This document shows positions 1 to 63,756 of a stretch of 64,000 nt of DNA, piece by piece. Origin of the DNA: a virus. The DNA lies in IMG/VR virus record IMGVR_UViG_3300024999_000044, positions 64,001-128,000 of that record. One strand, given 5' to 3'. The position numbers and the translations under genes were made by a program. The notes beneath the pieces were generated by a model. The model was given only the letters and a program-made list of their open reading frames with translations. It had not been told where the DNA came from and made no database searches. The number at the start of each line of letters is the position of its first letter. The first letter of the stretch is position 1.

Positions 1-244
1 AACTGCTTTACGAAAAGGATGGGGTGCTATTTATACGTAACGGATCAGATGGGTTTACAAAGGGGGTTAAATCTCAGTCCTCTTTGGTTTCACTCAAAAA
101 TAAGTGGGGATTTAGAGACGTAGAAAACTCCCCTACCTTTGGCAGTGGTGTGGAAATACAAAGAGCTTTACACTTATTTGATCTCAAGAGTGATGGGAAT
201 ATAGTGTATTCTGGAAGGAATATTCATTTCTAGGGGGCGGTAAA

Positions 245-706
245 ATGTCAGGAGTGCATCAATACGCTGTACTAAGGGGAGCTTTATCAAGGGAGGGTTT
301 ATTGGATCGGGGTAAGCAAAATGGTGTGTTGTGGGATGAGTCTAGTCATGAGGGGGTCAATTGGCTAAGATACAGCCATGCTCTGGTTTCCCACTTAGAC
401 GCTGATAAGCCTTTTCATACTGACGACGTAGATTTAAATACGTTAAAGCAAATGCATAACCACTACACACAACTAAGAAAATTACACATTAAAACTATGA
501 TACCACATGTGAAAGATGCCCTAAAGCATTTGCAGGACAAGGATGTTAACACCCATAAACATCCAAATGAATACTTGTCAGAAGTGTATCAACATCTGAA
601 TGAAAATGGTGGCCACCATTGGGCTGATAAGTCTAGAGCTCTAAATCATATGAACACCAGAATAAAATACTTGGGAAATAGAATAGAGGCTCAGGGTCAA
701 AACTAA
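245..706 (+). CDS. hypothetical His-rich small protein, 4 bp upstream of the sigma-like gene (possible co-regulator)
   Basis: 153-aa ORF; stop 4 nt before the start of the 711 ORF, so likely co-transcribed; many His residues; no recognised motif. Confidence 0.5.
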   Translation: MSGVHQYAVLRGALSREGLLDRGKQNGVLWDESSHEGVNWLRYSHALVSHLDADKPFHTDDVDLNTLKQMHNHYTQLRKLHIKTMIPHVKDALKHLQDKDVNTHKHPNEYLSEVYQHLNENGGHHWADKSRALNHMNTRIKYLGNRIEAQGQN

Positions 707-710
707 TTAC

Positions 711-1943
711 ATGAAACTAGGATTTAAAGAGCAGAACTTTGCGTTCTGCCTTTTTTCTTTGTTGAGGGGGTTAGAAATGGGAGAAGAAGTTGAAGTAACC
801 CAAGAATTATTAGATAAGGCTAGGAATCATGATGAGATTTCTAGCAACCTCATATATAAAGGTTTTTATAAACTGATACATTATCTTTGTAGGAAGTGGG
901 CAGGGAAAATATGGAGCAATGACTACTCAATGCAAGAGGAGTTATTTAGTATCTCTCACGTAGCATATATGAAAGCTCTTAATTCATTTGACCCCCTTAA
1001 AGGTGTAAAGTTTGCCACCTATCTCTCCAGATGTGTAGAAAATGAGATACTGATGTACTACAGGAAATGGAAAAAGATTAAACATGAGGTATCCTTCGAA
1101 ACGCCAGTGACCCATAATGCGGAAGGGCATGAGTTGTTCCTGTCAGATCTTTTAGAAAGCAAAGAAGATGGCTATGATGATTTAGAATTTAGGGAAGGCT
1201 TATGGAAAGAGTTTAAAGAGTTCGACTTAGGATCTAAATATGGTAATCTATTAAATCTCTCCATAATAGAAGGGAAAACACAGGTAGAGATAAGGGACTC
1301 TTTAGGGGTATCCCAGTCTTACGTATCTAGACTTGTTAAGAAGCAAACCATTAAGTTTAAGAAACACCTGGAGCAAGTCAACATAATAGAGGGAGGGGAT
1401 AGAATGCATAAGTCTACATACACGCAAGAACAAAAGGACAGGGTCAAGTACTTACTTGAAAATACCATTATGCTACAGCAAAATATAGCTAAGGAGACTG
1501 GGGTGAATCAATCAACGGTGTCTATAATGTCTAGAAAACTAACAAGACCAGAGGGTGCTTTTAGAACTTCTAAAAAAGAAGAGGTTCTGGATGGAGAAGT
1601 GACAACTACTTTTTGGTCTAAGGATCGAGTAGCTGAACATTTTGGAGAAGAGATAGATACTCCGTCTACAGCAGTTACTCCACCCTTACCTGATGGGGTA
1701 TTGGAAGCCCCTCTTCACCCATCCCTACAAGAGATGGACACCTCTAGTAAACTAGAGGACACTCCCACTATACAGGACCGATTAGTACATAAGGACAACT
1801 TACCAACAGGTGCTACAATCATAGAGTTAGTGCGGGACGGTTTAGACGCAGACTCACTTGAGTGGGAGGTACACAACCTAGTGGAGTATCTGAGGAGACT
1901 AAAACCCACTACTATTTCAGTAGAACTAAAAATAACATTCTAG
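711..1943 (+). CDS. sigma-70 family factor (SigF/SigG-like regions 2 and 4) fused to a C-terminal extension with a second HTH
   Basis: Region-2-like 'FSISHVAYMKALNSFDPLKGVKFATYLSRCVENEILMYYRK'; region-4.2-like HTH 'TQVEIRDSLGVSQSYVSRLVKK'; second HTH 'NIAKETGVNQSTVSIMSRKL'; in-frame RBS gagggagggga plus ATG at 1404. Confidence 0.6.
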   Translation: MKLGFKEQNFAFCLFSLLRGLEMGEEVEVTQELLDKARNHDEISSNLIYKGFYKLIHYLCRKWAGKIWSNDYSMQEELFSISHVAYMKALNSFDPLKGVKFATYLSRCVENEILMYYRKWKKIKHEVSFETPVTHNAEGHELFLSDLLESKEDGYDDLEFREGLWKEFKEFDLGSKYGNLLNLSIIEGKTQVEIRDSLGVSQSYVSRLVKKQTIKFKKHLEQVNIIEGGDRMHKSTYTQEQKDRVKYLLENTIMLQQNIAKETGVNQSTVSIMSRKLTRPEGAFRTSKKEEVLDGEVTTTFWSKDRVAEHFGEEIDTPSTAVTPPLPDGVLEAPLHPSLQEMDTSSKLEDTPTIQDRLVHKDNLPTGATIIELVRDGLDADSLEWEVHNLVEYLRRLKPTTISVELKITF

Positions 1944-2036
1944 AGAAATCTCACCTACTTACCAGGATATTAATTATCCTGGTAATTTTATTTTCTCACC
2001 TGCTTTAGATTTTTAAAGGTAAGGAGGCGAGGTCAG

Positions 2037-2921
2037 TTGATCAAGCATTGGGAACATACTGAAATCGTGGATGGTGCTACTTTTGAGAGATTTAAGTCAT
2101 TCAAGGCCCCTGTTTTTCCCAGCGCACCCTTACCTAATAATACTGCGGTATTCATCTCTTGTAGTGGTAAGAGATTAGAAGGTATATATGATCCCGAATT
2201 AAAGTCCATACGTCAATTTAGATACTTAGAAAACCCTCCCCCTAATAGGGATCTAAGATTATATTTAGATGCTATATCCAGTCCCCACATTACTATGATA
2301 GCTATAGATGGTCTGATGGGAACAGGTAAAACCTCCAATGCTGTAGAAAGTGCTGTAGAGTTTATAAATTCTACTCCTTGTGCTAGAGGTGACCTTAATT
2401 GCACTAAGGTGGTTATAGCCAAACCATATGTCAATGCTGGAGGGGAAGAATATGGCTTTTTACCTGGAGACGCTGATGAGAAACTAGACCCTACACTAAC
2501 TAATTTCATTCAGTATTTTGACAGATTTAGCACTATTGGATTTAAGAAATTGCGAGAGCTAGGACGTGTTAAGGTTTTACCTTTAGGGTTTATACGTGGA
2601 TTAGATGCCGAGAATATGATTATCCTAGCGGATGAGTGCCAAAATACTAGGGAGCTAATATCCTTGGCCACTAGAAAGGCTAAGAATAGTAGGATATTTT
2701 TTCTAGGGGATACAAGCCCTTTCCAAATAGACCTGCAAGGGGTTGCTCCTAAAAAGAATGGGCTAACCAATATTATAGATCTATTGTCTGGAGCCCCTTA
2801 TTTTCAGTATATTGAGCTTAAAACCCTGGAACACATAGTTCGTAGTGACGAAGTGAGAGACATAGTTAAGAGGTTATTTGAGAAATACGGGGAAAACCCT
2901 CAAGAATGGATAATTCAATAG
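2037..2921 (+). CDS. phoH: PhoH-like ATPase
   Basis: Walker A 'GLMGTGKTSNA'; 'GFLPGDADEKLDP' and 'ILADECQNT' motifs typical of the PhoH family; TTG start after RBS taaggaggcgagg. Confidence 0.75.
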   Translation: MIKHWEHTEIVDGATFERFKSFKAPVFPSAPLPNNTAVFISCSGKRLEGIYDPELKSIRQFRYLENPPPNRDLRLYLDAISSPHITMIAIDGLMGTGKTSNAVESAVEFINSTPCARGDLNCTKVVIAKPYVNAGGEEYGFLPGDADEKLDPTLTNFIQYFDRFSTIGFKKLRELGRVKVLPLGFIRGLDAENMIILADECQNTRELISLATRKAKNSRIFFLGDTSPFQIDLQGVAPKKNGLTNIIDLLSGAPYFQYIELKTLEHIVRSDEVRDIVKRLFEKYGENPQEWIIQ

Positions 2922-5760: not shown

Positions 5761-8070
5761 ATGCCGTATTCCTTATCACCAGAATTTGTATCAAAATACA
5801 GAAATAAAATACCTGATTGGGGTATACTGGGTTGGGAAACCTACAAGAGAACGTACGCACGGTGGATTCAATCTGAACTTAGGTACGAAGAATGGTGGGA
5901 AACCTGTAAAAGAGTTATCGAAGGTAATTTTAATCTAGTGCCCAATGACCCAACATTCACTATGGAAGAGATGGAAACAGCCTATGATTTGATGTTCTAC
6001 TTAATATGGTTACCTCCTGGCAGAGGTTTGTGGGTATCCGGCACTGATTTTGCTAAGAAGCATGGGGATGCCCTAGTCAACTGCTGGTTTATAGCATGTA
6101 GACCGCAACCTTACCTAAAAGGAGAAGAAGCAAAAGTATCATTCCCTTTTGTGTTTATCTTTGACGTATCTATGAAAGGCGGAGGCTCTGGATTTACTGC
6201 TCGTAAGAAAGATGTTAGTTTGATACCAGTGGTGAGTAAAAAGATTAACCTCTTTATAAAGTGTGATGCAAATCACCCAGACTTTAGTATAGATGTCCCC
6301 ACAGCCAAATTGGATTATGGTGTTGTAGATAAAGTGATGCCAACTAAAGGCATATTAATTGGAAAAGTGAACGATTCAAGAGAAGGTTGGTGTGATGCTC
6401 TAAGTTGGGTAATTGATAGCCATTTTGCTGGGTTGTGGGAAGCCAATTTGGTTATTGATATCAGTGACGTACGGGGTTACGGTGAAGAGATAAAAGGATT
6501 CGGTGGGAAGTCTAGTGGCCCTAGATCACTTGTTGAACTTCTGTGTGGGGTAAATGACCTTCTCAATCTTAGGCATCAAGGTAACCTGTCTTCAGTAGAT
6601 GTAGTAGACATAATGAACATGATCGGAAGATGTGTTATTGCTGGTAATGTTCGTAGAACCGCACAACTATCTATTGGAAGTACCGATGACATTGGGTTTA
6701 TGCAAATGAAGGATTTTGGAGTAGTAGATGAAATTTGCCAAACAGACGTTTCAGGTAATTTCATCTGGGAAAATGGGAAACGAGTCTTAAAGCCTATGAA
6801 CATCCTACAGCATCTTTACGAAGAAAAAGAACTTCAGGGGTTAATTTACACCCATCATGCTCAAAGTAATCACAGGTGGTCCTCAAATAACTCATTAATG
6901 GTTACTCCTGAGTTTGATGATTGGAAATTCCTGTCAGATAAGCTAAAGATAAATGGAGAACCTGGGTACATTAATGAGTACCTCATCCAGAACTATGGGA
7001 GACTGATAGATGGGGTACAAGAAGGTATAGATGGGGAGGCTGAAGGATGCAATGCATGCGTTGAAATAACTCTTGCCAATGGTGAGCCTTGCAACCTGGT
7101 GGAGAATTTTCCCCTCAATATTAACAAAGCTAATAAAGACTACAAGAAGGTCTTAGATATCTCTGCCAGATACGCTTATAGGGTCACTCATTGCATTCAT
7201 GACTGGGAAGTTTCTAGGGATATTGTGTCTAAGAATAGAAGGATTGGTGCCTCCCTGTCGGGTATCCAGGATTGGGTACTTGAAGAATTTGGCGGTGAAG
7301 TATTTACTGGGTGGAAAACTACTAATGGTTTGACTCTACCTACTGGAGTAAATCCACTAGTAGTTAAGGCGTTGGATGACTATTACCATACAATTAAGGA
7401 ATCCGCCACCAAATACGCTAAAGCACTGGGCACTAACACCCCTATAAAATTTACAACAGTCAAACCATCTGGTACAATATCACTGCTAGTGGGTGCCTCA
7501 CCTGGTATGCACTGGCACTATTTTGGGTATGGGATACGTAGAATGCGATTCCAAATGGATGACATGTTACTTCCAATACTCAAACAAGCAGGTTATTACA
7601 TGGAACCCGATATAAAGGTGCCAAATACCATGGTTGTTGAGTTCCCTGTAAAAGCATGCACGGCGGACCATCCTAAATTTAGATCCGCCGGACAAGTACC
7701 AATCTATGAGCAATTTGCTTTCCAAGCTTTGTTATCTGAATACTGGGCAGACAACTCTGTCTCCTGCACCATAACTTTTCAGCCCGAAGAAGCAGATCAG
7801 TTAGAGGGACTATTAAGACATTATAGCACTAAGATTAAGGCCACCACATGCTTACCATATAAAAATCATGGGTATGCTCAGGCACCTTATGAACCTTATT
7901 CAGAGAAGGATGGGAAAAGTCCCAAACAGCAATACGAGGAAGCTCTATCCAAAATAACAGATAGGCCAGTGGATATTTATACTAGGCTTCACCTAAGTGA
8001 TAATGCTAAGGAAGAGCTGGAAGCAATATTAGGCTCTGACTGTACTACAGGGGCCTGCCCAATACGATAG
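5761..8070 (+). CDS. ribonucleotide reductase, class II (NrdJ)-like
   Basis: 'LVNCWFIA' (SCF-like), 'GGGSGFTARK' (GGGxG...R block), 'NACVEITL' (N-x-C-x-E active-site loop) followed by 'EPCNLVENFPLNI' (CNLGSINL-like), C-terminal Cys pair 'CTTGACP'; start moved to MPYSL after gaggag RBS (track start 5713). Confidence 0.6.
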   Translation: MPYSLSPEFVSKYRNKIPDWGILGWETYKRTYARWIQSELRYEEWWETCKRVIEGNFNLVPNDPTFTMEEMETAYDLMFYLIWLPPGRGLWVSGTDFAKKHGDALVNCWFIACRPQPYLKGEEAKVSFPFVFIFDVSMKGGGSGFTARKKDVSLIPVVSKKINLFIKCDANHPDFSIDVPTAKLDYGVVDKVMPTKGILIGKVNDSREGWCDALSWVIDSHFAGLWEANLVIDISDVRGYGEEIKGFGGKSSGPRSLVELLCGVNDLLNLRHQGNLSSVDVVDIMNMIGRCVIAGNVRRTAQLSIGSTDDIGFMQMKDFGVVDEICQTDVSGNFIWENGKRVLKPMNILQHLYEEKELQGLIYTHHAQSNHRWSSNNSLMVTPEFDDWKFLSDKLKINGEPGYINEYLIQNYGRLIDGVQEGIDGEAEGCNACVEITLANGEPCNLVENFPLNINKANKDYKKVLDISARYAYRVTHCIHDWEVSRDIVSKNRRIGASLSGIQDWVLEEFGGEVFTGWKTTNGLTLPTGVNPLVVKALDDYYHTIKESATKYAKALGTNTPIKFTTVKPSGTISLLVGASPGMHWHYFGYGIRRMRFQMDDMLLPILKQAGYYMEPDIKVPNTMVVEFPVKACTADHPKFRSAGQVPIYEQFAFQALLSEYWADNSVSCTITFQPEEADQLEGLLRHYSTKIKATTCLPYKNHGYAQAPYEPYSEKDGKSPKQQYEEALSKITDRPVDIYTRLHLSDNAKEELEAILGSDCTTGACPIR

Positions 8071-12752: not shown

Positions 12753-12822
12753 CTGCTTAGATTTTTAATGTATGTGTAGAACAATTTGTGATCCTTATAA
12801 TTTGTAGCAAGGAGGTACAGGT

Positions 12823-55092: not shown

Positions 55093-55169
55093 TCTCTACT
55101 CTTTCTTATTTTCCTCAGAAATACACTACCAAAACGAGGAAACTGGAGATTGTGTCACAAAAGGGGAGA

Positions 55170-55225
55170 AAAACTGACCGACCTTAGGAATTTCCCCGCA
55201 AAATTGACCGAAAACGGTCAATTTT
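55170..55225. promoter_or_regulatory. 26-bp perfect palindrome aaaattgaccgaaaacggtcaatttt plus upstream half-site aaaactgaccga: candidate operator
   Basis: read directly; located between the resolvase gene and the next gene start. Confidence 0.45.
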
Positions 55226-55233
55226 GCGACTGG

Positions 55234-55941
55234 ATGAATTCCAGATTTTGGGGCAAAATGAAGACAGAGCAGGAGAACAACCGACACCGAGTTACAAAAT
55301 TAGGGAAGGTGGTAGATTATATGATCAACGCAACTGCTCACTTGGTGGGCGATAATGAGCAGGTTGATATCTTGTTAGGGACTAAATTAACAAAGAAGGG
55401 TGTAGATGATACAATGGCAAAAACAGCAAAAGTTACTGAGATTAATGAGGAAACTGTTGGGGAGATTGTAGCGAATGAAGAAGTAAAAATTGAGGACAAG
55501 GCAGAGGTTACCGGGAATGAAATGGGTGAAGCAATTGAGACAACCCCAGAAGCTACAGGGGATGTTACCATTGAGGAGCTATCCTCCACGGTGCCACATG
55601 AAACCTTGGAAGAGCTAAAGGGGTTTATCAAGGATATCGACACGGATACTTTGGAGTTCATTGCCACTACTCTAAGTGCAGATTGGTCCAGGCATGAGAA
55701 TGCCCCAATAAATCGTATGAGAGTGGCCATGTCCATACAAAGATACTTCTTCCCTGAGCTATTCTCCCCTAAGGAAGAAAGTGGTAAGAAGAAGAAAGCT
55801 AAGTATGCAGATCTCTCCAATGAGAAGCTATTTGAAATGGCTAAGGCCGGAAAAGTAGCCGTAGAAACAACTGGGCATGCACCAATTGACCGCATGAGGG
55901 TTATAGTGGGGCTTAAAGCAGCAGGATTGCTACCAAAATAA
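55234..55941 (+). CDS. acidic protein with C-terminal HeH/SAP-like motif (two copies of ..P I(N/D) RMRV..)
   Basis: 'APINRMRVAMSIQRYF' and 'LSNEKLFEMAKAGKVAVETTGHAPIDRMRVIVGLKAAGLL'; start moved downstream of the palindrome (track 55150). Confidence 0.45.
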   Translation: MNSRFWGKMKTEQENNRHRVTKLGKVVDYMINATAHLVGDNEQVDILLGTKLTKKGVDDTMAKTAKVTEINEETVGEIVANEEVKIEDKAEVTGNEMGEAIETTPEATGDVTIEELSSTVPHETLEELKGFIKDIDTDTLEFIATTLSADWSRHENAPINRMRVAMSIQRYFFPELFSPKEESGKKKKAKYADLSNEKLFEMAKAGKVAVETTGHAPIDRMRVIVGLKAAGLLPK

Positions 55942-56068
55942 GATGAAGAGTAAGTATCAAGAAAGGAGCAGATTTACGAATCTGTTCCTTTTATTTTTTG
56001 TACAATTGTTGGGAGGTGATGTGCATCCTTTACATTTTCTCGAAAAATCGCGAAAAATGCAATTTTTT

Positions 56069-56103
56069 TGAGCTTGTAATTTTTTCGGAATTTGAGATAA
56101 TGA
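56069..56103 (+). promoter_or_regulatory. putative sigma-A-type promoter upstream of the small sigma factor gene
   Basis: ttgtaa, 17 nt, ataat(g) in an AT-rich 260-bp intergenic region. Confidence 0.3.
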
Positions 56104-56199
56104 AAGTGGGAGTTCCGTCTTCCCTGGGTGTGGGGGAGTATTCTAACATAGCACTATTTTCACGTAGCAGATGAAAAGCAGAAAGAGAGTGAATGCTGA

Positions 56200-56820
56200 G
56201 TGTCAGAACAGGTAGAGAGACTATCATGGGAACATATCGTAGGTAAATTTGAAAGGTTGATTAAATTTGCCGCTAGGAAACGTATAGAAAATAACCCAAC
56301 AGATGGCATGATCTCGGCAGAGGATTTATTCCAGGATGGCATGATACAACTTTATGACAGTTGGATAAACTATGGGCATAAGCCTGAAGAAGAGTTTGAC
56401 CAGCTATTTAGAGCTTCCTTGTGGAGAAGAGTTAAAAGGTCTGGAGGAATACAACGAAACAACATAGACTTGTCCGATGTATCGGACACTCTTAAGGATG
56501 AGAACAACATTGACATGGTGGAGAAAATGTATGTGGGCCATGGAATAGAGCACCTTAAAACACTTCTGACTAACCCATTGTCTATAAGGTTAGTCGACGA
56601 GTTAACAGATCCTAGTGATAGAACCCACTTTGAGGTATGGGCAGATATAAAACGTAAAGAGATGCTTAAATCACAGGGTAAGAAAATAAATGTTCCCAAG
56701 GATAACACAATCAGGATGAAGCACATAATTCGCTCACTTGGCATAACTACAAAGCAGTATGATATTGCTATGTATGAGATACGTCAAAAAGCGGAATTAG
56801 CATTTGCTTTCGGAGGGTGA
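56200..56820 (+). CDS. small sigma-70 family factor (phage-encoded alternative sigma)
   Basis: region 2.2-like 'AEDLFQDGMIQLYDSWINY'; size (206 aa) like SPO1 gp28/gp34-type factors; GTG start. Confidence 0.55.
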   Translation: MSEQVERLSWEHIVGKFERLIKFAARKRIENNPTDGMISAEDLFQDGMIQLYDSWINYGHKPEEEFDQLFRASLWRRVKRSGGIQRNNIDLSDVSDTLKDENNIDMVEKMYVGHGIEHLKTLLTNPLSIRLVDELTDPSDRTHFEVWADIKRKEMLKSQGKKINVPKDNTIRMKHIIRSLGITTKQYDIAMYEIRQKAELAFAFGG

Positions 56821-56896
56821 GAGACTCTATCAGAGAGACGATTTTTCGTTACTTGATTTTTTGTTTTATACCTGAAATTTGGGAGGAAGATACAGA

Positions 56897-57343
56897 ATGA
56901 TTGACGTAACAGCCAAAATGCTAGAAACTATTAGCGGATCTACTTGTTTTGGGATAGCCTATGATGACGCCATACCGGAATGCATCCAATGTGATGTTCG
57001 TCTACAATGTAAAGCTAAATCCGGTGGAGAAGCCATACCAACTCCAACGGTTAAGGAGTCCACACCAGGAGAGGTTAAAACCCCCAAAGTAGCCAAGACT
57101 CCTAAGAACCCAATGGGTGAAAAGATTAACAAACCGGATGAAACCGAAAGTACTGTAGCTGATAAACCTAAAAAAGGAGTAAAAGAGGCACCTCCAGTAA
57201 ATACTAATTTACCGGACTTCAAGCCTATGAGTACGGAACAACTAAAGGCTCTTGCCAAGGATAGAAATGTGGAGTGGAAAGACTATGGCAATGAGAATAT
57301 TACTCGCATGAGATTAATTATGGCCTTAAAAAAGTCATACTAA
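56897..57343 (+). CDS. protein with N-terminal Cys cluster, P/T/K-rich linker and C-terminal HeH/SAP-like motif
   Basis: 'CIQCDVRLQC'; C-terminal 'MSTEQLKALAKDRNVEWKDYGNENITRMRLIMALKKSY' resembles the 55234 ORF C-terminus; start after gggagga (track 56879). Confidence 0.45.
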   Translation: MIDVTAKMLETISGSTCFGIAYDDAIPECIQCDVRLQCKAKSGGEAIPTPTVKESTPGEVKTPKVAKTPKNPMGEKINKPDETESTVADKPKKGVKEAPPVNTNLPDFKPMSTEQLKALAKDRNVEWKDYGNENITRMRLIMALKKSY

Positions 57344-58223: not shown

Positions 58224-58259
58224 AATAATAGGCTAGCCACTGACGGCTAGCCTATTATT
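58224..58259. terminator. bidirectional terminator hairpin (15-bp perfect stem) between convergent genes
   Basis: aataataggctagcc actgac ggctagcctattatt; stop codon of the minus-strand gene lies inside the stem. Confidence 0.65.
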
Positions 58260-59074
58260 ATGTTCTTAAACATTTCCTTAAATTCACTGTGATACATAAA
58301 CCTAAAATCAATAGACCCTCCCTCTACGTGATCCCGCAAGGTCTTCACCCTTTTGCTCCTTCCATCCTCGGTAATAAAGAGTACTCTTGGGAATGGGGGG
58401 GTACTAAAGGCTTTAGTCCATTTCTCTTTTACCCAAGTTCTAGACATGTAGTATTCCTTATACTTATCGAGTTTATCCCTAATATAGGGGATATCCTCCG
58501 TGCCAAGATCCACTTCGATGTAAAACACATACCCCTTTCCTCCATACATAATAAAGACAAACATATCAGGTATCAATCGGTTATCACTATAATAGTAGGG
58601 TTCTTCCACTTTATACAGAATAACCTTACCTCCAATGTTATTGACTACCTCCCTGATCATACATTCATATTCATTTATAAAGACTTTATGTTCCCAACCT
58701 AGAAATAAGCTGCGATTACCCACTAAATCTGTTGTGATAGGCTTGTTGTATTTTTCTAATCCTAGAAGTAATATTCCAGCTCTATCCAAGCAGATATACT
58801 GTTGGCTACTACCTTCCCCCAACCCCACAGAAGGATATATTTTATCCAGTACGTGCATTCTGTATAAAGTTTTTAACCTTCGATTAAGGACTGCGGTACT
58901 CCCAAATTCTGGATACAACCTCTCCAATTGGTCTCTTCTGAGTAACCTCCTTTTGTTATTTAATAGGAGCCTAAGAAGACCAATATCCCTATCAGTTATG
59001 TTTTTGCAGTTTTCCTTTACCCACATCTTAGTAACTTGCTTAACTTCCGGCCTGTCATATTTTCTACATATCAC
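58247..59074 (-). CDS. wHTH plus nuclease-like protein resembling the 'replication-relaxation' (Replic_Relax) family
   Basis: N-terminal winged-helix-like 'ITDRDIGLLRLLLNNKRRLLRRDQLERLY'; C-terminal 'VFYIEVDLGTEDI' (E.D.GTE motif) as recalled for Replic_Relax proteins. Confidence 0.45.
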   Translation of the reverse strand: MICRKYDRPEVKQVTKMWVKENCKNITDRDIGLLRLLLNNKRRLLRRDQLERLYPEFGSTAVLNRRLKTLYRMHVLDKIYPSVGLGEGSSQQYICLDRAGILLLGLEKYNKPITTDLVGNRSLFLGWEHKVFINEYECMIREVVNNIGGKVILYKVEEPYYYSDNRLIPDMFVFIMYGGKGYVFYIEVDLGTEDIPYIRDKLDKYKEYYMSRTWVKEKWTKAFSTPPFPRVLFITEDGRSKRVKTLRDHVEGGSIDFRFMYHSEFKEMFKNIIIG

Positions 59075-59080
59075 TTATGA

Positions 59081-61984
59081 TCATCCTTCCGTTAGACCTA
59101 GCTCTTCTAGATGAAGGAGCATATCCTCATCTATGTTTACACTACGATTCATATGATCCGCTACATCATCCAATAGCCTATTTTTCTGTCTACGAAGTAC
59201 CCTTTTCGTATCCTCCGGTTCATCAGATGTGGTAAGACATTTTCTCTTCAGCTCCCCTTCCCCTTTAGTAGTGGTTACTTCGCTCAGGTCATCTACACTT
59301 ATCTGGATGTTGCTGCCTCTAGAATATATGTCTTGCTTTACAATCTCTTTGTCTTCCCCGAAATCTTCTGCACATTTCGTATATAGGTCCATATTGTCAT
59401 ACTTAGGTAACCTACTTTCTGGGTCTAGGATTGCCTTAGCCATAAATGAAGGAGTACTTTGACCCGTAGAGCCATACATCTTTAATCTAATTATGGCATG
59501 CCATTGTGGCATACCTTTAGCCACATCTTTAACTTTGAATTCTGGCTCAACTACACTCTTTAGCTCATCTAGATTATCCTCGTCAGTCTGAAAAATCATG
59601 TAATGTGGCCCTGCTTGCCTCATAATCTCTGGTAGGTTCTTATCGGTTTTCTTTAATTGGGACCACCCATGAAACATAAATACTAATCCACATCTATACT
59701 TTCTATATCTGGTCAACATCTGTTGCCATCTTTCACTACCTTTTATGTAATGGTCTGGTTCATCTAACATTAAAAAGCATGGTGGTCTATCATCTTCTTC
59801 ATCAATATCTTTTCTGCTAATCATGGCAAGGTTGAACTTAGCCATGATAAAGGAGATAAGAGCAGTAACAATAGGTTCCCCTAAATCTTCATCAGCATAG
59901 ACAAGAACCATATCACCCTCATCCATCCATTTCCTAAAATCTACTAGATAGTTGCCTTCCAAGTCTTTTTTAGGCCTCTGTAGAAGTATATTTTTCACTG
60001 CACTCTTACGTGTAATCTTGTACAACCTACGAAAAGTTTGGTCACATATGGAGGAACGCTCTTCCTTGGTGTAGTCATTGTGATATCTCTCCCAGTCAGA
60101 GCGTAACTCAAAATCAGTAATGCTGGAAATTATGTTTGCCCTATAATCAGGGTCACTCATCATTCTCATAACATCTTGTATGGTCGCATCTGGGGTGGTC
60201 CAAACAGCTTTAACAGCTAATTGAACCCAAGTCTCTGAAGTCATACTAAGAGCATTTCCAGCCACTAGTTCTATAAAATGTATTACTTCCTCAGCAAGAT
60301 TATCCTGTATATCTTCAGCCTCTTTGCCTCTAAATATTTCATTCCAGCCTATGCCAATTGGCCTCCTGGTGTTAGAAAAATCAATGATCTTAACCTTGTG
60401 CCTAAGCTCAGGAGGTACCCTTTTTAGTATTCTACGTAGTGCCTTACCATCTGCTGCATCAATGTACATAACACCATAGCCTCTAAAGAACGATTCTAAG
60501 GCAAAATTAATACCAGCGGTAGTTTTACCCGTTCCAGGCTCTCCCATAATAACTCTAGTCATACATAGATGGTTCTTATTTTTGGTGGAGTAATGAAGGG
60601 TTTTTATGATGCCATCCGTGTCTTCAATAGTGGCAAATGGTATGTTTTTACCATTCCCATCTTCAAAAGTTTCCTTAGGTACTTCAGATTCCCCTTTGTT
60701 GGTTACTAGGCTTAACTCATTGTAGTGATCTATTTGAGCCTTTTGGTCTGGCACATTGATGATCTTAGCTAATTCATTAGAGCACAGTACATCATGAACA
60801 GTATTGGGCATTATTCGGTTAATGACTGAATGTATCCTATTAGACTTTCTTTTTTCACTTTGCGTAGAAGATTCTACTAACTTGTTATCTCCCTCAAGGG
60901 GGTCAAATCCAGAGGTGATGGAACGTATAACTGCTTTTCTCCTCTCAGAATCTGGGCATTGAACAGATACACTTATGTTAGTGTCAAAAGCATCAGATTT
61001 GGCTTTAAATCGGGTGGAATTGGATTCTATACTCCCATTAAGGAATTTTTTGTTACCACCGAGGTTATCCGATTCCTCCCATTCAGGTATAAATGAGTTG
61101 CCAAACATATTAAGACCACCCTCTACAGCCAAACCTGCAAGCCATCCACCAGTTAGAGCTATTTTTTTAGCAGATGGTTTTTCACCTTTCTTTCTAGGCA
61201 CTTCACTAGTTTGCTTATGGGTATCTAGTAGTGACATCATAGAGTCATTCCACTCACTACCTTTCGGCCTTAGGCCGATTTGTAGAAGGGCTACATCCCC
61301 TTCTTTTAAATAATGCTTTGCATTTAAGATAGACTCTAGTATGGAGAAGTGCGGGTTATCCACATCCAAGGATAATAACTGGTGGTATTTCAGGTGTAGT
61401 TTTGTGACATCGGTAATGTTACTCCCAAATTGAGGCATAGGATCTTTTACCACCTTAACGTTAGACTGCTTCCAACATTTCATTACCTGCCGTGCTAACC
61501 CTTCTTTTATTCCTTCCTTGTCAGGTACTGTTAGGTAGAAACCAATTTGGTTGTGTTTGATTATAACCTCCCACCATACCACCATTTCCTGATCATAGGT
61601 CATAAAGTATTCCTCTGAGTCTAAGTTTATACGCGATGTCAGAGGTCTGTACAGCCTAGAGAATTCAGACATTAACCATTTTACATTCATATTGCTTGTC
61701 ATCTTGCTTGGGGAAATCTCCAGTGATGCATAATTTAAATCATTTTTCTTAATAGCCTTATCCCTAAGATTGCTGATACTTAATGTGACCTCTGAGAGGT
61801 CCGGCACATCTTCTTCATCGACTTTAACTCTATCTTCTCCCACATACAAGGGGTTTATCTTTTGTAAAAATGACCTAATAATGCCTTGCCCTTTAACCTC
61901 TTTAGAGTCAGAATCAACCCTAGGAATTATTCTAGGGTTGATAATAGTTTTTCCAATCCTCACAATTGGTGGAGTGTTTAACAT
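59081..61984 (-). CDS. 967-aa FtsK/HerA/VirB4-superfamily P-loop ATPase with approx. 450-aa N-terminal domain of unknown function
   Basis: Walker A 'GEPGTGKTT', Walker B 'CFLMLDEPDHY', 'YRKYRCGLVFMFHGWSQL' resembling the RK.G...TQ block of FtsK/HerA/VirB4 ATPases; ATPase in the C-terminal half as in VirB4/TcpF. Confidence 0.5.
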   Translation of the reverse strand: MLNTPPIVRIGKTIINPRIIPRVDSDSKEVKGQGIIRSFLQKINPLYVGEDRVKVDEEDVPDLSEVTLSISNLRDKAIKKNDLNYASLEISPSKMTSNMNVKWLMSEFSRLYRPLTSRINLDSEEYFMTYDQEMVVWWEVIIKHNQIGFYLTVPDKEGIKEGLARQVMKCWKQSNVKVVKDPMPQFGSNITDVTKLHLKYHQLLSLDVDNPHFSILESILNAKHYLKEGDVALLQIGLRPKGSEWNDSMMSLLDTHKQTSEVPRKKGEKPSAKKIALTGGWLAGLAVEGGLNMFGNSFIPEWEESDNLGGNKKFLNGSIESNSTRFKAKSDAFDTNISVSVQCPDSERRKAVIRSITSGFDPLEGDNKLVESSTQSEKRKSNRIHSVINRIMPNTVHDVLCSNELAKIINVPDQKAQIDHYNELSLVTNKGESEVPKETFEDGNGKNIPFATIEDTDGIIKTLHYSTKNKNHLCMTRVIMGEPGTGKTTAGINFALESFFRGYGVMYIDAADGKALRRILKRVPPELRHKVKIIDFSNTRRPIGIGWNEIFRGKEAEDIQDNLAEEVIHFIELVAGNALSMTSETWVQLAVKAVWTTPDATIQDVMRMMSDPDYRANIISSITDFELRSDWERYHNDYTKEERSSICDQTFRRLYKITRKSAVKNILLQRPKKDLEGNYLVDFRKWMDEGDMVLVYADEDLGEPIVTALISFIMAKFNLAMISRKDIDEEDDRPPCFLMLDEPDHYIKGSERWQQMLTRYRKYRCGLVFMFHGWSQLKKTDKNLPEIMRQAGPHYMIFQTDEDNLDELKSVVEPEFKVKDVAKGMPQWHAIIRLKMYGSTGQSTPSFMAKAILDPESRLPKYDNMDLYTKCAEDFGEDKEIVKQDIYSRGSNIQISVDDLSEVTTTKGEGELKRKCLTTSDEPEDTKRVLRRQKNRLLDDVADHMNRSVNIDEDMLLHLEELGLTEG

Positions 61985-63625: not shown

Positions 63626-63631
63626 GCATTG

Positions 63632-63727
63632 AAGGAGAGAACTTTTTAGTTCTCTCCTTTTTTATTATTGCTCACACTCCTTCTTCTTTATATTGGAGAG
63701 AACTTTTTAGTTCTCTCCTTTTTTATT
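63632..63727 (+). terminator. two tandem copies of the same terminator hairpin (33-bp direct repeat)
   Basis: ggagagaac-ttttta-gttctctcc followed by ttttttatt at 63632-63668 and 63695-63727. Confidence 0.65.
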
Positions 63728-63756
63728 TGCAGTAAGTGTGAGAGGGGTTTTTATAT

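What the first reader, a model, noticed from the sequence alone, without database searches (positions are those of the whole stretch)
245..1943. Sigma-factor gene with C-terminal HTH extension, in-frame internal RBS/ATG, and a tightly coupled His-rich upstream gene
ORF 711-1943 has SigF/SigG-like regions 2 and 4 in its first approx. 225 residues. It then continues for 185 residues with a second HTH (NIAKETGVNQSTVSIMSRKL) and an acidic C-terminal domain. Exactly at the junction there is a strong in-frame RBS (gagggagggga) and ATG (1404). The gene may therefore yield both a fusion and a separate 179-aa C-terminal product, for example an anti-sigma/co-factor, reminiscent of SPO1 gp33/gp34 pairs. 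The His-rich ORF 245-706 ends 4 nt before it. A second small sigma is at 56200, so the phage encodes at least two alternative sigmas.
Basis: partly seen in the sequence, partly recalled or inferred. Interest (0 to 1): 0.55.

Follow-up and report, generated by a model that had tools for sequence, protein, structure and literature searches.

The report
Phage sigma gene with nested partner protein
This groundwater phage gene encodes a sporulation-type RNA polymerase sigma factor fused to a second DNA-binding module, and a conserved internal ribosome-binding site and start codon very probably also make that module as a separate 179-residue protein; related phages encode the same module as a separate gene.

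Summary
The gene is real, but it starts at ATG 777 (388 aa), not 711. A conserved terminator hairpin (731-749 plus a T-run) separates it from the His-rich ORF, so the "tight coupling" is an artefact.

Residues 1-200 are a SigE/SigK-like sigma-70 domain. There follow a 16-aa linker, a homeodomain-like HTH (217-254), about 90 acidic disordered residues and a roughly 45-aa beta-alpha-beta end module (CTD).

The internal GGAGG-type RBS and ATG 1404 are as strong as the gene's own start and lie in the linker.

- In 17 of 17 homologous fusions that carry a C-terminal module (cyanophage MaeS, Bacillus Bastillevirinae, metagenomic phages), the strongest in-frame internal RBS+start of the whole gene sits 7-19 codons before the second HTH. 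The linker sequence itself is not conserved (codon-shuffle Fisher p about 1e-9).
- This start is absent from 6 of 6 relatives that lack the end module.
- Caeruleoviruses encode the same HTH-CTD as a separate gene 1 nt after the sigma stop. Nitunaviruses encode it as a separate downstream gene. AR9/PBS1 encode it alone.

Two products are therefore strongly supported by comparison but unproven experimentally. The short protein's role (partner or antagonist) is inferred. The second sigma at 56200 is only weakly supported.

The parts
245..706 (+). His-rich ORF (153 aa, 16 His) of unknown function, conserved upstream neighbour of the sigma gene
   Evidence: phrog_22909 E 5e-46, function unknown. 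88% identical in L002 and 52% in L006, with many invariant His. His count.
731..760 (+). Intrinsic-terminator-like hairpin GCAGAAC-TTTGC-GTTCTGC followed by a T-run, between the His-rich ORF and the sigma RBS
   Evidence: Terminator scan. Folding energy -11.8 kcal/mol. Conserved in L002 and kept with compensatory stem changes in L006.
764..770 (+). Shine-Dalgarno sequence GAGGGGG of the full-length gene
   Evidence: Anti-SD pairing -12.0 kcal/mol, against -3.3 for ATG 711. Sequence.
777..1943 (+). Full-length gene: sigma-HTH2-CTD fusion, 388 aa (P0001)
   Evidence: Gene callers and the homologue P0002 start here. Family assignments.
777..1082 (+). Sigma region 2 (aa 1-102)
   Evidence: Pfam Sigma70_r2 E 4.6e-9. 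pLDDT 83-96. Sequence match to the SigE N-terminal domain 8b3z, E 5e-13.
1182..1376 (+). Sigma region 4 (aa 136-200) with the SQSYVSR recognition helix
   Evidence: Pfam Sigma70_r4 20.7 bits, below its cut-off. SigE/SigK models align through aa 200. Helices 136-200 in the AF2 model.
1377..1424 (+). Flexible interdomain linker (aa 201-216) that holds the internal initiation signals
   Evidence: pLDDT below 50 at aa 207-212. Linker sequence not conserved among homologues.
1389..1399 (+). Internal in-frame Shine-Dalgarno sequence GAGGGAGGGGA
   Evidence: -11.9 kcal/mol, rank 1 of 15 in-frame internal starts. The equivalent element is present in 17 of 17 fused homologues that carry a C-terminal module.
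1404..1943 (+). Nested ORF for the predicted 179-aa HTH2-CTD product (internal ATG 1404, same stop codon)
   Evidence: Conserved start position. The surrounding mRNA is unstructured: -0.5 against a gene mean of -6.7 kcal/mol. Homologous free-standing genes exist in AR9, Hobo, Bc431v3 and SPG24.
1425..1538 (+). Second HTH (HTH2, aa 217-254), a homeodomain-like three-helix DNA-binding domain
   Evidence: pLDDT about 94. phrog_8794 E 2.7e-10. Weak Pfam HTH_7/DUF7343 hits. Foldseek top matches are homeodomains, TM about 0.56-0.6 but E-values not significant. hhalign probability 95-97% to the free-standing Hobo and SPG24 proteins.
1539..1808 (+). Acidic, mostly disordered spacer (aa 255-344) with one short conserved helix motif (TTFWSKDRVAEHFG)
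   Evidence: pLDDT 29-61. Short helix at residues 73-80 of the C-terminal model. Motif visible in alignment A5. Charge.
1809..1940 (+). C-terminal beta-alpha-beta module (CTD, aa 345-388), a presumed oligomerisation unit
   Evidence: pLDDT about 80-87. Aligns without gaps across 16 fused and 4 free-standing homologues. Replaced by a coiled coil in P0233.
1959..1995 (+). Terminator-like hairpin plus T-run downstream of the sigma gene
   Evidence: Terminator scan: 11-bp stem, then TTTTATTTTC.

Best explanation
The gene at 777-1943 encodes a 388-aa protein. It has a SigE/SigK-like sigma-70 domain (regions 2 and 4, aa 1-200). A 16-aa flexible linker joins this to a homeodomain-like HTH (HTH2), an acidic disordered spacer and a small beta-alpha-beta C-terminal module (CTD).

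Inside the linker, a strong Shine-Dalgarno sequence (1389-1399) and the in-frame ATG 1404 lie in an unstructured stretch of mRNA. They direct a second, independent initiation. The same mRNA should therefore yield the full-length sigma-HTH2-CTD and a free 179-aa HTH2-CTD protein. I put this step at about 0.75-0.8; it rests on comparative evidence only.

The free protein is the counterpart of a sigma-linked DNA-binding factor. Related phages encode it as a separate gene immediately after the sigma gene, or alone.

My preferred mechanism is inferred, at about 0.4. HTH2 reads a DNA element just upstream of the -35 region. The CTD oligomerises. The free copies co-assemble with the sigma-tethered copy. 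The result is an oligomeric DNA-binding unit carrying few sigma/RNAP moieties, as in phage endolysins made from one gene as a full-length chain plus extra C-terminal chains.

Whether the net effect of the short form is activation or damping of sigma-dependent transcription is not resolved.
For: Shown by tools:

1. The internal start is as strong as the annotated one: -11.9 against -12.0 kcal/mol, rank 1 of 15. It sits in the low-confidence linker between two confident domains.

2. In 17 of 17 homologous fusions with a C-terminal module, the best in-frame internal RBS+start of the whole gene lies 7-19 codons before HTH2 helix 1. The set comprises the window, L002, L006, L008, L009, Microcystis phage MaeS, f2b1, Goe8, P59, L020-L024, LysYB2, TsarBomba and Eldridge_0172, with protein identity down to about 18-30%. 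Pairing energies run from -7.4 to -13.5, yet the linker residues differ.

3. Composition-preserving codon shuffles give Fisher p = 1e-7 for 6 genes and 7e-10 for 14 genes. Synonymous-codon resampling with the protein sequence fixed gives Fisher p = 2.5e-4.

4. mRNA from -25 to +25 around the internal start is less structured than the rest of each gene: mean z = +0.94, p = 0.0015.

5. The signal is absent from 6 of 6 relatives that have sigma-HTH2 but no CTD: SPG24_a, Goe17, BSP36, B5S, C30-1 and Eldridge_0171. Fisher exact p = 1e-5, Mann-Whitney p = 2e-4.

6. Split and free forms exist.
- Hobo_202 (sigma) is followed after 1 nt by Hobo_203 (HTH2-CTD, 163 aa), whose RBS lies inside the sigma gene's 3' end. 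The same holds in Bc431v3.
- This pair is syntenic with the fused TsarBomba_190.
- SPG24 has a separate 137-aa HTH2-CTD gene downstream of its sigma gene.
- AR9 and PBS1 have a free 153-aa homologue. Its N-terminus (MGRENGQYNIEEAKRLI) aligns with the internal Met of the fusion P0113 (MAGKNFGKYNIEEAKRLI).

7. The CTD aligns without gaps between fused and free proteins. One fusion carries a coiled coil in its place.

8. Precedent: in-frame internal start sites in the interdomain linkers of endolysin genes yield two polypeptides that can heteromultimerise (PMC9430671).

9. A family member, Eldridge_0172, is most likely the ELDg169 of PMC9429907. That gene acts as a SigF/G-like sigma when induced in B. 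subtilis.
Against: - There is no direct evidence of initiation at 1404: no ribosome profiling, no proteomics.
- In the window gene itself the linker residues (EGGDR) almost force an SD-like sequence (synonymous resampling p = 0.21). Nucleotide-level selection is therefore visible only across the family.
- The homologues are not phylogenetically independent, so the combined p-values are optimistic.
- The hetero-oligomer idea is weakened by Nitunavirus SPG24. There the sigma-HTH2 protein has lost the CTD, yet a free HTH2-CTD gene is kept. So at least there the two proteins cannot pair through the CTD.
- DNA binding by HTH2 rests on fold class and weak profile hits only.
- No target DNA motif was found.
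Confidence: 0.55

Rival explanations
1. Two products are made, but the free HTH2-CTD is an antagonist rather than a partner. It occupies the same DNA sites, or forms mixed oligomers that lack sigma. Either way it damps or times sigma-dependent transcription, in the manner of the Tn5 transposase/inhibitor pair or an anti-sigma-like brake.
For: - The free form shares the whole DNA-binding and CTD part but lacks the RNAP-binding part.
- SPG24 keeps a free HTH2-CTD while its sigma-HTH2 has lost the CTD. That fits competition at shared DNA sites better than CTD pairing.
- AR9, which encodes its own RNA polymerase subunits near the gene and has no sigma gene next to it, keeps the free form. The free form therefore functions without a fused or adjacent sigma gene.
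Against: - No known anti-sigma domain was detected in Pfam, NCBIfam or the PDB.
- Fusion to the sigma in most lineages, and translational coupling in the split forms, are more typical of partners that work together than of antagonists.
- Nothing tested here separates activation from inhibition.
Confidence: 0.2
2. The internal RBS+ATG is an evolutionary leftover of a fusion of two adjacent genes (sigma | HTH2-CTD). Only the full-length fusion matters, and any short product is incidental.
For: - Split forms with a real stop and start at this position exist in Caeruleovirus, so a fusion history is plausible.
- In the window the amino acids EGGDR largely dictate the SD-like sequence.
Against: - A neutral relic should decay. 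Instead it is the top-ranked internal start in 17 of 17 fusions that are only about 18-30% identical and sit on both SigE/K-like and SigF/G-like sigma bodies.
- Synonymous codon choice strengthens it across the family, p = 2.5e-4.
- The local mRNA is unstructured.
- It is absent from all 6 CTD-less fusions.
- From my own knowledge: a strong SD and ATG in open mRNA would initiate whether 'intended' or not.
Confidence: 0.12
3. The SD-like sequence is a translational pause site at a domain boundary. It helps the sigma domain fold before HTH2 emerges, and no second product is intended.
For: It lies exactly at the interdomain linker.
Against: - It is always followed at RBS spacing by an in-frame ATG, GTG or TTG. 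A pause site does not need that.
- The same position is a genuine gene start in the split relatives.
- From my own knowledge: SD-induced pausing has been questioned as a ribosome-profiling artefact.
Confidence: 0.04

Closest known systems
Two-polypeptide phage endolysins encoded by one gene with an in-frame internal translation start (Pinto et al. 2022, PMC9430671; e.g. LysP7951)
   Same: A strong RBS and an in-frame start sit in the linker between an N-terminal functional domain and a C-terminal binding domain. The gene is predicted to give a full-length chain plus a free C-terminal chain. The arrangement is found in phages of RBS-dependent hosts. In the endolysins the C-terminal chains can multimerise with the full-length chain.
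   Different: Here the N-terminal part is a sigma factor and the C-terminal part is a DNA-binding HTH with a small end module. Production of two chains and their assembly have not been shown experimentally. The paper covers endolysins only.
Sporulation sigma factors SigE/SigK (and SigF/G) of Firmicutes, and their phage-encoded homologues (Schwartz et al. 2022, PMC9429907; ELDg169 of phage Eldridge)
   Same: The first 200 residues align end to end with SigE/SigK models, E about 1e-34 to 1e-30, and match the SigE/SigK structures. The fused relative Eldridge_0172, most likely ELDg169, drives sporulation-gene expression in B. subtilis.
   Different: Scores are far below the equivalog cut-offs (118.7 against 339 bits), so it is not an orthologue. 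Cellular SigE/K/F/G have no C-terminal HTH2-CTD extension. The words C-terminal, extension and fused do not occur in the paper's main text.
Free-standing HTH2-CTD proteins: Bacillus jumbo phage AR9/PBS1 'DNA binding protein' (A0A172JI55, 153 aa); Caeruleovirus Hobo gp203 and Bc431v3 orf107; Nitunavirus SPG24 gp081 (PHROG 8794, labelled 'sigma factor')
   Same: They are homologous over HTH2 (hhalign probability 95-97%; Foldseek E 1.8e-4 to AR9) and over the CTD. Their N-termini coincide with the internal start of the fusions.
   Different: They are separate genes with their own stop and start, and in AR9 there is no sigma gene next to it. None has a tested function. The database label 'sigma factor' is not backed by any sigma region in these proteins.
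Phage sigma plus accessory-protein pairs: SPO1 gp34/gp33 and T4 gp55/gp33 (my own knowledge; T4 gp33 is described in PMC7824862)
   Same: A phage sigma works with a small, separately made, acidic or HTH-containing partner encoded nearby.
   Different: No sequence relationship was detected. SPO1-type phages (Okubovirus) have the sigma but gave no HTH2-CTD match. In those systems the partner is never fused to the sigma or nested within its gene.
ECF sigma factors with fused C-terminal regulatory extensions (e.g. ECF41/42; reclassification in PMC7826278, listed)
   Same: A sigma2-sigma4 body carries an extra C-terminal domain that modulates its activity in cis.
   Different: Those extensions are SnoaL-like, TPR or similar sensing domains on group-4 sigmas, with no nested second product reported (my own knowledge). 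Here the extension is an HTH plus an oligomerisation-like module on a sporulation-type sigma.
Classical in-frame nested isoforms: Tn5 transposase/inhibitor, T7 gp4A/4B, IF2 alpha/beta (my own knowledge); genome-wide internal starts mapped with retapamulin Ribo-seq (bioRxiv 10.1101/520783, listed)
   Same: One ORF and two in-frame starts. The short form lacks an N-terminal functional domain and modulates or complements the long form.
   Different: None of these involves a sigma factor. Here the evidence is comparative only.

Membership tests
Sigma-70 family RNA polymerase sigma factor | Region 2 (core binding and -10 recognition) | tested here: met
   Pfam PF04542 E 4.6e-9, 36.4 bits, above the 24 cut-off. 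Sequence match to the SigE N-terminal domain 8b3z, E 5e-13; Foldseek TM 0.84 on the target.
Sigma-70 family RNA polymerase sigma factor | Region 4 HTH (-35 recognition) | tested here: met
   Pfam PF04545 alone is just below its cut-off (20.7 against 24.1 bits). However, TIGR02937 spanning regions 2 to 4 scores 68.7 bits against a cut-off of 42.9, and the SigE/SigK models align through aa 200. The invariant SQSYVSR helix is shared with about 90 sigma homologues.
Sigma-70 family RNA polymerase sigma factor | Binds core RNA polymerase and directs promoter-specific initiation | not testable with these tools
   Indirect only: the related fusion ELDg169 (most likely Eldridge_0172) reprogrammes B. 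subtilis transcription (PMC9429907).
SigE or SigK orthologue (NCBIfam equivalogs) | Score above the curated equivalog cut-off | tested here: not met
   SigE NF006158 scores 118.7 bits against a cut-off of 339. SigK TIGR02846 scores 104.1 against 298.65. It is SigE/K-like, not an orthologue.
Genes with an in-frame internal translation start giving two polypeptides | RBS plus in-frame start codon at proper spacing inside the ORF, at an interdomain linker | tested here: met
   GAGGGAGGGGA-N4-ATG at 1389-1406, -11.9 kcal/mol, in the linker with pLDDT below 50.
Genes with an in-frame internal translation start giving two polypeptides | The signal is conserved among homologues beyond what composition or protein sequence explains | tested here: met
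   Rank 1 in 17 of 17 fusions. Codon-shuffle Fisher p 7e-10, synonymous resampling p 2.5e-4, absent in 6 of 6 CTD-less relatives.
Genes with an in-frame internal translation start giving two polypeptides | Open mRNA structure at the internal start | tested here: met
   The window's -25..+25 stretch folds at -0.5 against a gene mean of -6.7 kcal/mol. Family mean z = +0.94, p = 0.0015.
Genes with an in-frame internal translation start giving two polypeptides | Two polypeptides actually produced | not testable with these tools
   Needs a western blot, N-terminal proteomics or initiation-specific ribosome profiling.
SPO1 gp33/gp34-type sigma plus accessory pair | Sequence homology of the C-terminal product to the accessory protein, or presence of the module in SPO1-type phages | tested here: not met
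   tblastn with the 179-aa product found nothing in 50,697 phage records. tblastn with the free SPG24 homologue matched 49 records, none an Okubovirus. The CampHawk sigma locus has no such neighbour. SPO1 gp33 itself was not compared directly.
Anti-sigma factor | Recognisable anti-sigma domain, or demonstrated sigma binding | tested here: inconclusive
   No anti-sigma family appeared in Pfam, NCBIfam or the PDB profile search. Binding cannot be tested here.
Homeodomain-like (resolvase/transposase-type) HTH DNA-binding domains | Three-helix bundle with a recognition helix; profile similarity | tested here: inconclusive
   The AF2 three-helix unit has pLDDT about 94. Foldseek top matches are homeodomains, TM about 0.56-0.6 on the target, but E = 0.4-1. 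Pfam HTH_7 has E 0.035, below its cut-off. The relative P0004 carries faint HTH_23/HTH_28 hits.

The most novel reading that the evidence does not exclude
A widespread family of phage sigma factors carries its own promoter-proximal DNA-binding partner as a nested gene. The sigma-tethered and free HTH2-CTD chains would assemble through the CTD on an element upstream of -35. That would give a three-part promoter read-out with a built-in activator, whose stoichiometry is set by the ratio of two translation starts on one mRNA. Evolution has resolved the same system repeatedly into fused, split, duplicated and sigma-less forms.
Probability: 0.25. Interest if true: 0.8.

Novelty: new variant of a known kind. 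Interest (0 to 1): 0.62.

Why it matters
Phage sigma factors are the main switches of middle and late gene expression, and in Bacillus phages they also tamper with host sporulation. If this family makes two proteins from one gene, several things follow.

- Experiments that express 'the sigma factor', such as ELDg169, have been expressing an unnoticed second DNA-binding protein too.
- Databases mislabel the free HTH-CTD proteins as 'sigma factor' (PHROG 8794; RefSeq AR9, PBS1, SPG24, Bcp1).
- The fused, split and free series gives a Rosetta-stone link between a sigma and a new, uncharacterised class of transcription co-factor.
- The idea can be tested directly in cultivable Bacillus phages (Eldridge, Goe8, TsarBomba, Hobo, SPG24).
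- It extends the 'one gene, two in-frame polypeptides' strategy, known for endolysins, to transcription factors.

Tried and rejected
1. Near-identical DNA in known phages: none found.

2. Word-indexed protein search with the 179-aa product found nothing, not even the parent protein P0001. I treated this as a false negative of the tool and replaced it with the exhaustive profile search.

3. The search for related loci with an alignment or with single proteins in viral contigs gave no usable loci.

4. Hobo 201/202 and Bcp1 Bcp26/Bcp25 at first looked like a split form. They are two tandem sigma genes. The real split partner is the next gene, Hobo_203.

5. P0136 (212 aa) looked free-standing, but its reading frame is open at the contig end, so it is a fragment of a fusion.

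6. A sigma-70-like promoter match at 1378-1405 would place the transcript start after ATG 1404. I rejected it as the source of a separate mRNA.

7. The second strong in-frame SD+GTG in the window gene (V369, -11.5) is not conserved in L002, so I took it as chance.

8. Search for target DNA motifs: TTAGATTTTTAA occurs exactly twice after terminators (2005, 12757). It is not enriched when mismatches are allowed, and it fits no known SigE/K or SPO1 promoter consensus that I could align. I did not pursue it.

9. No further HTH2-CTD copy exists in the 64-kb window.

10. The afdb50 fold library was unavailable.

12. Literature searches found no description of the C-terminal extension or of the internal start in phage sigma genes.
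Full report
**What is in the sequence**

The ORF 711-1943 exists, but its first ATG is not the likely start. ATG 777 is preceded by GAGGGGG, with anti-SD pairing of -12.0 kcal/mol against -3.3 for ATG 711. Gene callers in three public assemblies give the 388-aa product P0001. The closest homologue, P0002 (54% identity), begins MGKE where the window has MGEE.

Between the stop of the His-rich ORF (706) and ATG 777 lies the hairpin GCAGAAC-TTTGC-GTTCTGC followed by a T-run (731-760; -11.8 kcal/mol). This spacer is better conserved than the flanking genes in L002. In L006 it is kept with compensatory stem changes.

The His-rich gene is real. It has 16 His in 153 residues, belongs to phrog_22909, and is 88% identical in L002. 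It is a conserved neighbour, but it is separated from the sigma gene by a terminator-like element and is not coupled to it.

The window belongs to a phage genome of about 141.8 kb from groundwater metagenomes. It has no close DNA relative among deposited phages.

**Domain anatomy**

- Residues 1-200 are a sigma-70-family domain. Pfam region 2 is above threshold and region 4 just below it. TIGR02937 is above its cut-off. The best named models are SigE and SigK at E about 1e-34 to 1e-30, but far below their equivalog cut-offs. PDB matches are the SigE N-terminal domain and SigK.
- The AlphaFold model gives sigma region 2 (1-102), region 4 (136-200) and a linker (201-216, pLDDT below 50 at 207-212).
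- After the linker come a confident three-helix HTH (217-254), about 90 disordered acidic residues, and a confident C-terminal module of about 45 aa.
- Modelled alone, the C-terminal 179 residues give the same picture.
- HTH2 resembles homeodomain-like (resolvase/transposase-type) HTHs by fold, but without significant scores.
- Its best viral structural match is the 153-aa 'DNA binding protein' of Bacillus jumbo phage AR9.

**The internal start**

GAGGGAGGGGA (1389-1399) and ATG 1404 pair with the anti-SD at -11.9 kcal/mol. This equals the gene's own start and is the best of 15 in-frame internal start codons. In the window's ORFs only 27 of 17,701 internal codons are starts at -8.4 or better, and 9 at -11 or better. 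The surrounding mRNA (-25 to +25) folds at -0.5 kcal/mol against a gene mean of -6.7.

**Comparative test**

The fused architecture is not peculiar to this phage. It occurs in metagenomic relatives (P0002, P0003, P0004/P0097, P0027). It also occurs in Microcystis phage MaeS and in many Bacillus Herelleviridae: f2b1, Goe8, P59, LysYB2, TsarBomba/0524phi7-1 and Eldridge.

An exhaustive profile search with the C-terminal part found 247 proteins. Nearly all full-length matches were 380-460-aa sigma fusions.

I obtained DNA for 17 fusions that carry a C-terminal module. In every one, the strongest in-frame internal RBS+start of the whole gene lies 7-19 codons before HTH2 helix 1. Energies run from -7.4 to -13.5 kcal/mol and the start is ATG, GTG or TTG. 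The linker residues differ from gene to gene: IEGGDRM, YKEVGDV, HKGEKKM, VREEEKM, SEEEKDM and so on.

| Test | Result |
|---|---|
| Codon shuffle of the junction region, composition kept, 6 genes | Fisher p = 1e-7 |
| Same shuffle, 14 genes | Fisher p = 7e-10 |
| Synonymous-codon resampling, protein sequence fixed | Fisher p = 2.5e-4 |
| mRNA structure around the start against the rest of each gene | mean z = +0.94, p = 0.0015 |
| Strong start (dG <= -7) in genes with a C-terminal module (17/17) against genes without (0/6) | Fisher exact p = 1e-5 |
| Junction-start energy, genes with a C-terminal module against genes without | Mann-Whitney p = 2e-4 |

The six relatives that have sigma-HTH2 but lack the C-terminal module are SPG24_a, Goe17, BSP36, B5S, C30-1 and Eldridge_0171. 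These p-values ignore shared ancestry and are therefore optimistic. The pattern itself has no exception in my sample.

**Split, duplicated and free forms**

- In Caeruleovirus Hobo, the sigma gene 202 ends ...TTAGGAGGAGTTTAA. One nucleotide later, gene 203 starts, in another frame. It encodes a 163-aa HTH2-CTD protein whose RBS lies inside the sigma gene's 3' end. Bc431v3 orf108|orf107 is the same.
- The Hobo pair is syntenic with the fused TsarBomba_190: sigma, sigma or sigma fusion, a small gene, then ParM. TsarBomba_190 aligns with Hobo_202 over its sigma part and with Hobo_203 over HTH2 and the CTD.
- Nitunaviruses (SPG24, phiNIT1, Grass) have sigma-HTH2 without a CTD, followed by a separate 137-aa HTH2-CTD gene.
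- AR9/PBS1-type jumbo phages have only the free 153-aa protein, near genes for their own RNA polymerase subunit and DNA polymerase. Its N-terminus aligns with the internal Met of the fusion P0113.
- The CTD aligns without gaps across fused and free proteins.
- In one fusion (P0233) the CTD is replaced by a coiled coil. This suggests that the end module's job is oligomerisation.

**Interpretation**

*Shown.* A sigma domain is fused to a conserved HTH-CTD module. A start signal at the junction is conserved beyond composition and protein constraints. It co-occurs with the CTD. Free-standing genes for the same module begin at the same place.

*Inferred, about 0.75-0.8.* The window gene yields both the 388-aa fusion and a 179-aa HTH2-CTD protein.

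*Inferred further, about 0.4.* The 16-aa tether after region 4 would place HTH2 on DNA just upstream of -35. The CTD oligomerises. Free and tethered chains co-assemble. The closest mechanistic precedent is the phage endolysins that are made as a full-length chain plus extra C-terminal chains from an in-frame internal start (PMC9430671).

The SPG24 arrangement shows that CTD-mediated pairing with sigma cannot be universal. An antagonist role for the short form therefore remains a serious rival.

The 'relic of a gene fusion' and 'pause site' readings fit the conservation, the codon-level signal, the start codon and the CTD association poorly.

One family member, Eldridge_0172, is most likely ELDg169 (adjacent to ELDg168, SigF-like). 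It has been shown to act like SigF/G in B. subtilis (PMC9429907). The words C-terminal, extension and fused do not occur in that paper's main text. I found no paper that describes the extension or the nested start.

- The likeness to SPO1 gp33/gp34 is an analogy only. No HTH2-CTD homologue was detected in SPO1-type phages.
- The 'second sigma' at 56200-56820 has no Pfam hit and only sub-threshold sigma similarity. It may be a very divergent sigma, but that is unproven.

**Verdict**

Its two errors are the start codon, with the coupling that followed from it, and the confidence placed in a second sigma. The key interpretation, two products from one gene, is strongly supported by comparative genomics and can be tested directly.

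I rate it a new variant of a known kind: in-frame nested products, here in a sigma factor together with its likely DNA-binding partner.

Noticed in passing
window 731-776: The terminator-like hairpin and T-run end only about 4 nt before the sigma RBS, which leaves no room for a promoter. The whole spacer is more conserved than the neighbouring genes in L002, and L006 keeps it with compensatory changes. Sigma expression may depend on terminator read-through or RNA processing.
   Followed up: partly
window 2005-2016 and 12757-12768; L002 about 7285-7296: The exact 12-mer TTAGATTTTTAA occurs twice, each time just after a terminator-like hairpin and before an RBS. A similar CTAGATTTTAA lies before phoH in L002. 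It is not enriched when mismatches are allowed, and its meaning is unknown.
   Followed up: partly
window 55150-57343: The weak sigma candidate at 56200-56820 is flanked by two ORFs (55150-55941 and 56879-57343) that share a C-terminal domain (phrog_13880/12391/13400, labelled 'transcriptional regulator'). This may be a small regulatory gene cluster.
   Followed up: partly
window 58247-61984 (- strand); L008 6179-9581; L016 665-1015: A Replic_Relax protein and a 967-aa phrog_5156 protein lie on the opposite strand. In the unrelated element L008, a Replic_Relax gene with a T4SS-type ATPase lies directly next to a sigma-HTH2-CTD fusion, and the fragment L016 also has a Replic_Relax gene next to its fusion. 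This points to a recurring association with plasmid-like replication or transfer genes.
   Followed up: no
window 63626-63730: Two nearly identical terminator-like hairpins (GGAGAGAACTTTTTAGTTCTCTCC plus T-run) occur in tandem about 70 nt apart.
   Followed up: no
window 245-706; L002 5468-5938; L006 4497-4934: The His-rich protein is much better conserved than the sigma: 88% against 54% identity between the window and L002. Many His residues are invariant, and there is a faint resemblance to a small metal-binding protein (Pfam SMBP, E 0.17).
   Followed up: partly
L032 1732-3441 (TsarBomba_190); L022 823-2058 (P0233): Variants of the family: the TsarBomba-type fusions carry two HTH2 copies before the CTD, and P0233 has a coiled coil in place of the beta-alpha-beta CTD.
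   Followed up: partly
window 1-2921; L002, L006, L021, L023, L028 (LysYB2), L038 (CampHawk): There is recurrent synteny of terminase large subunit, a ParB_N/DUF3626 or SPO1-gp51-like protein, small genes, then sigma. It links this groundwater phage to SPO1-like Herelleviridae, although there is no DNA similarity.
   Followed up: partly
PHROG 8794; RefSeq records NC_031039 (AR9), NC_043027 (PBS1), NC_030903 (SPG24), NC_024137 (Bcp1): Free-standing HTH2-CTD proteins are labelled 'sigma factor' in PHROGs and RefSeq although they contain no sigma region. The label seems to have been transferred from the fused genes.
   Followed up: partly
window 1404-1943 as query: The word-indexed protein search returned no hit for the 179-aa query, although its parent protein P0001 is in the database. 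Negative results from that tool for short or low-complexity queries are unreliable.
   Followed up: yes
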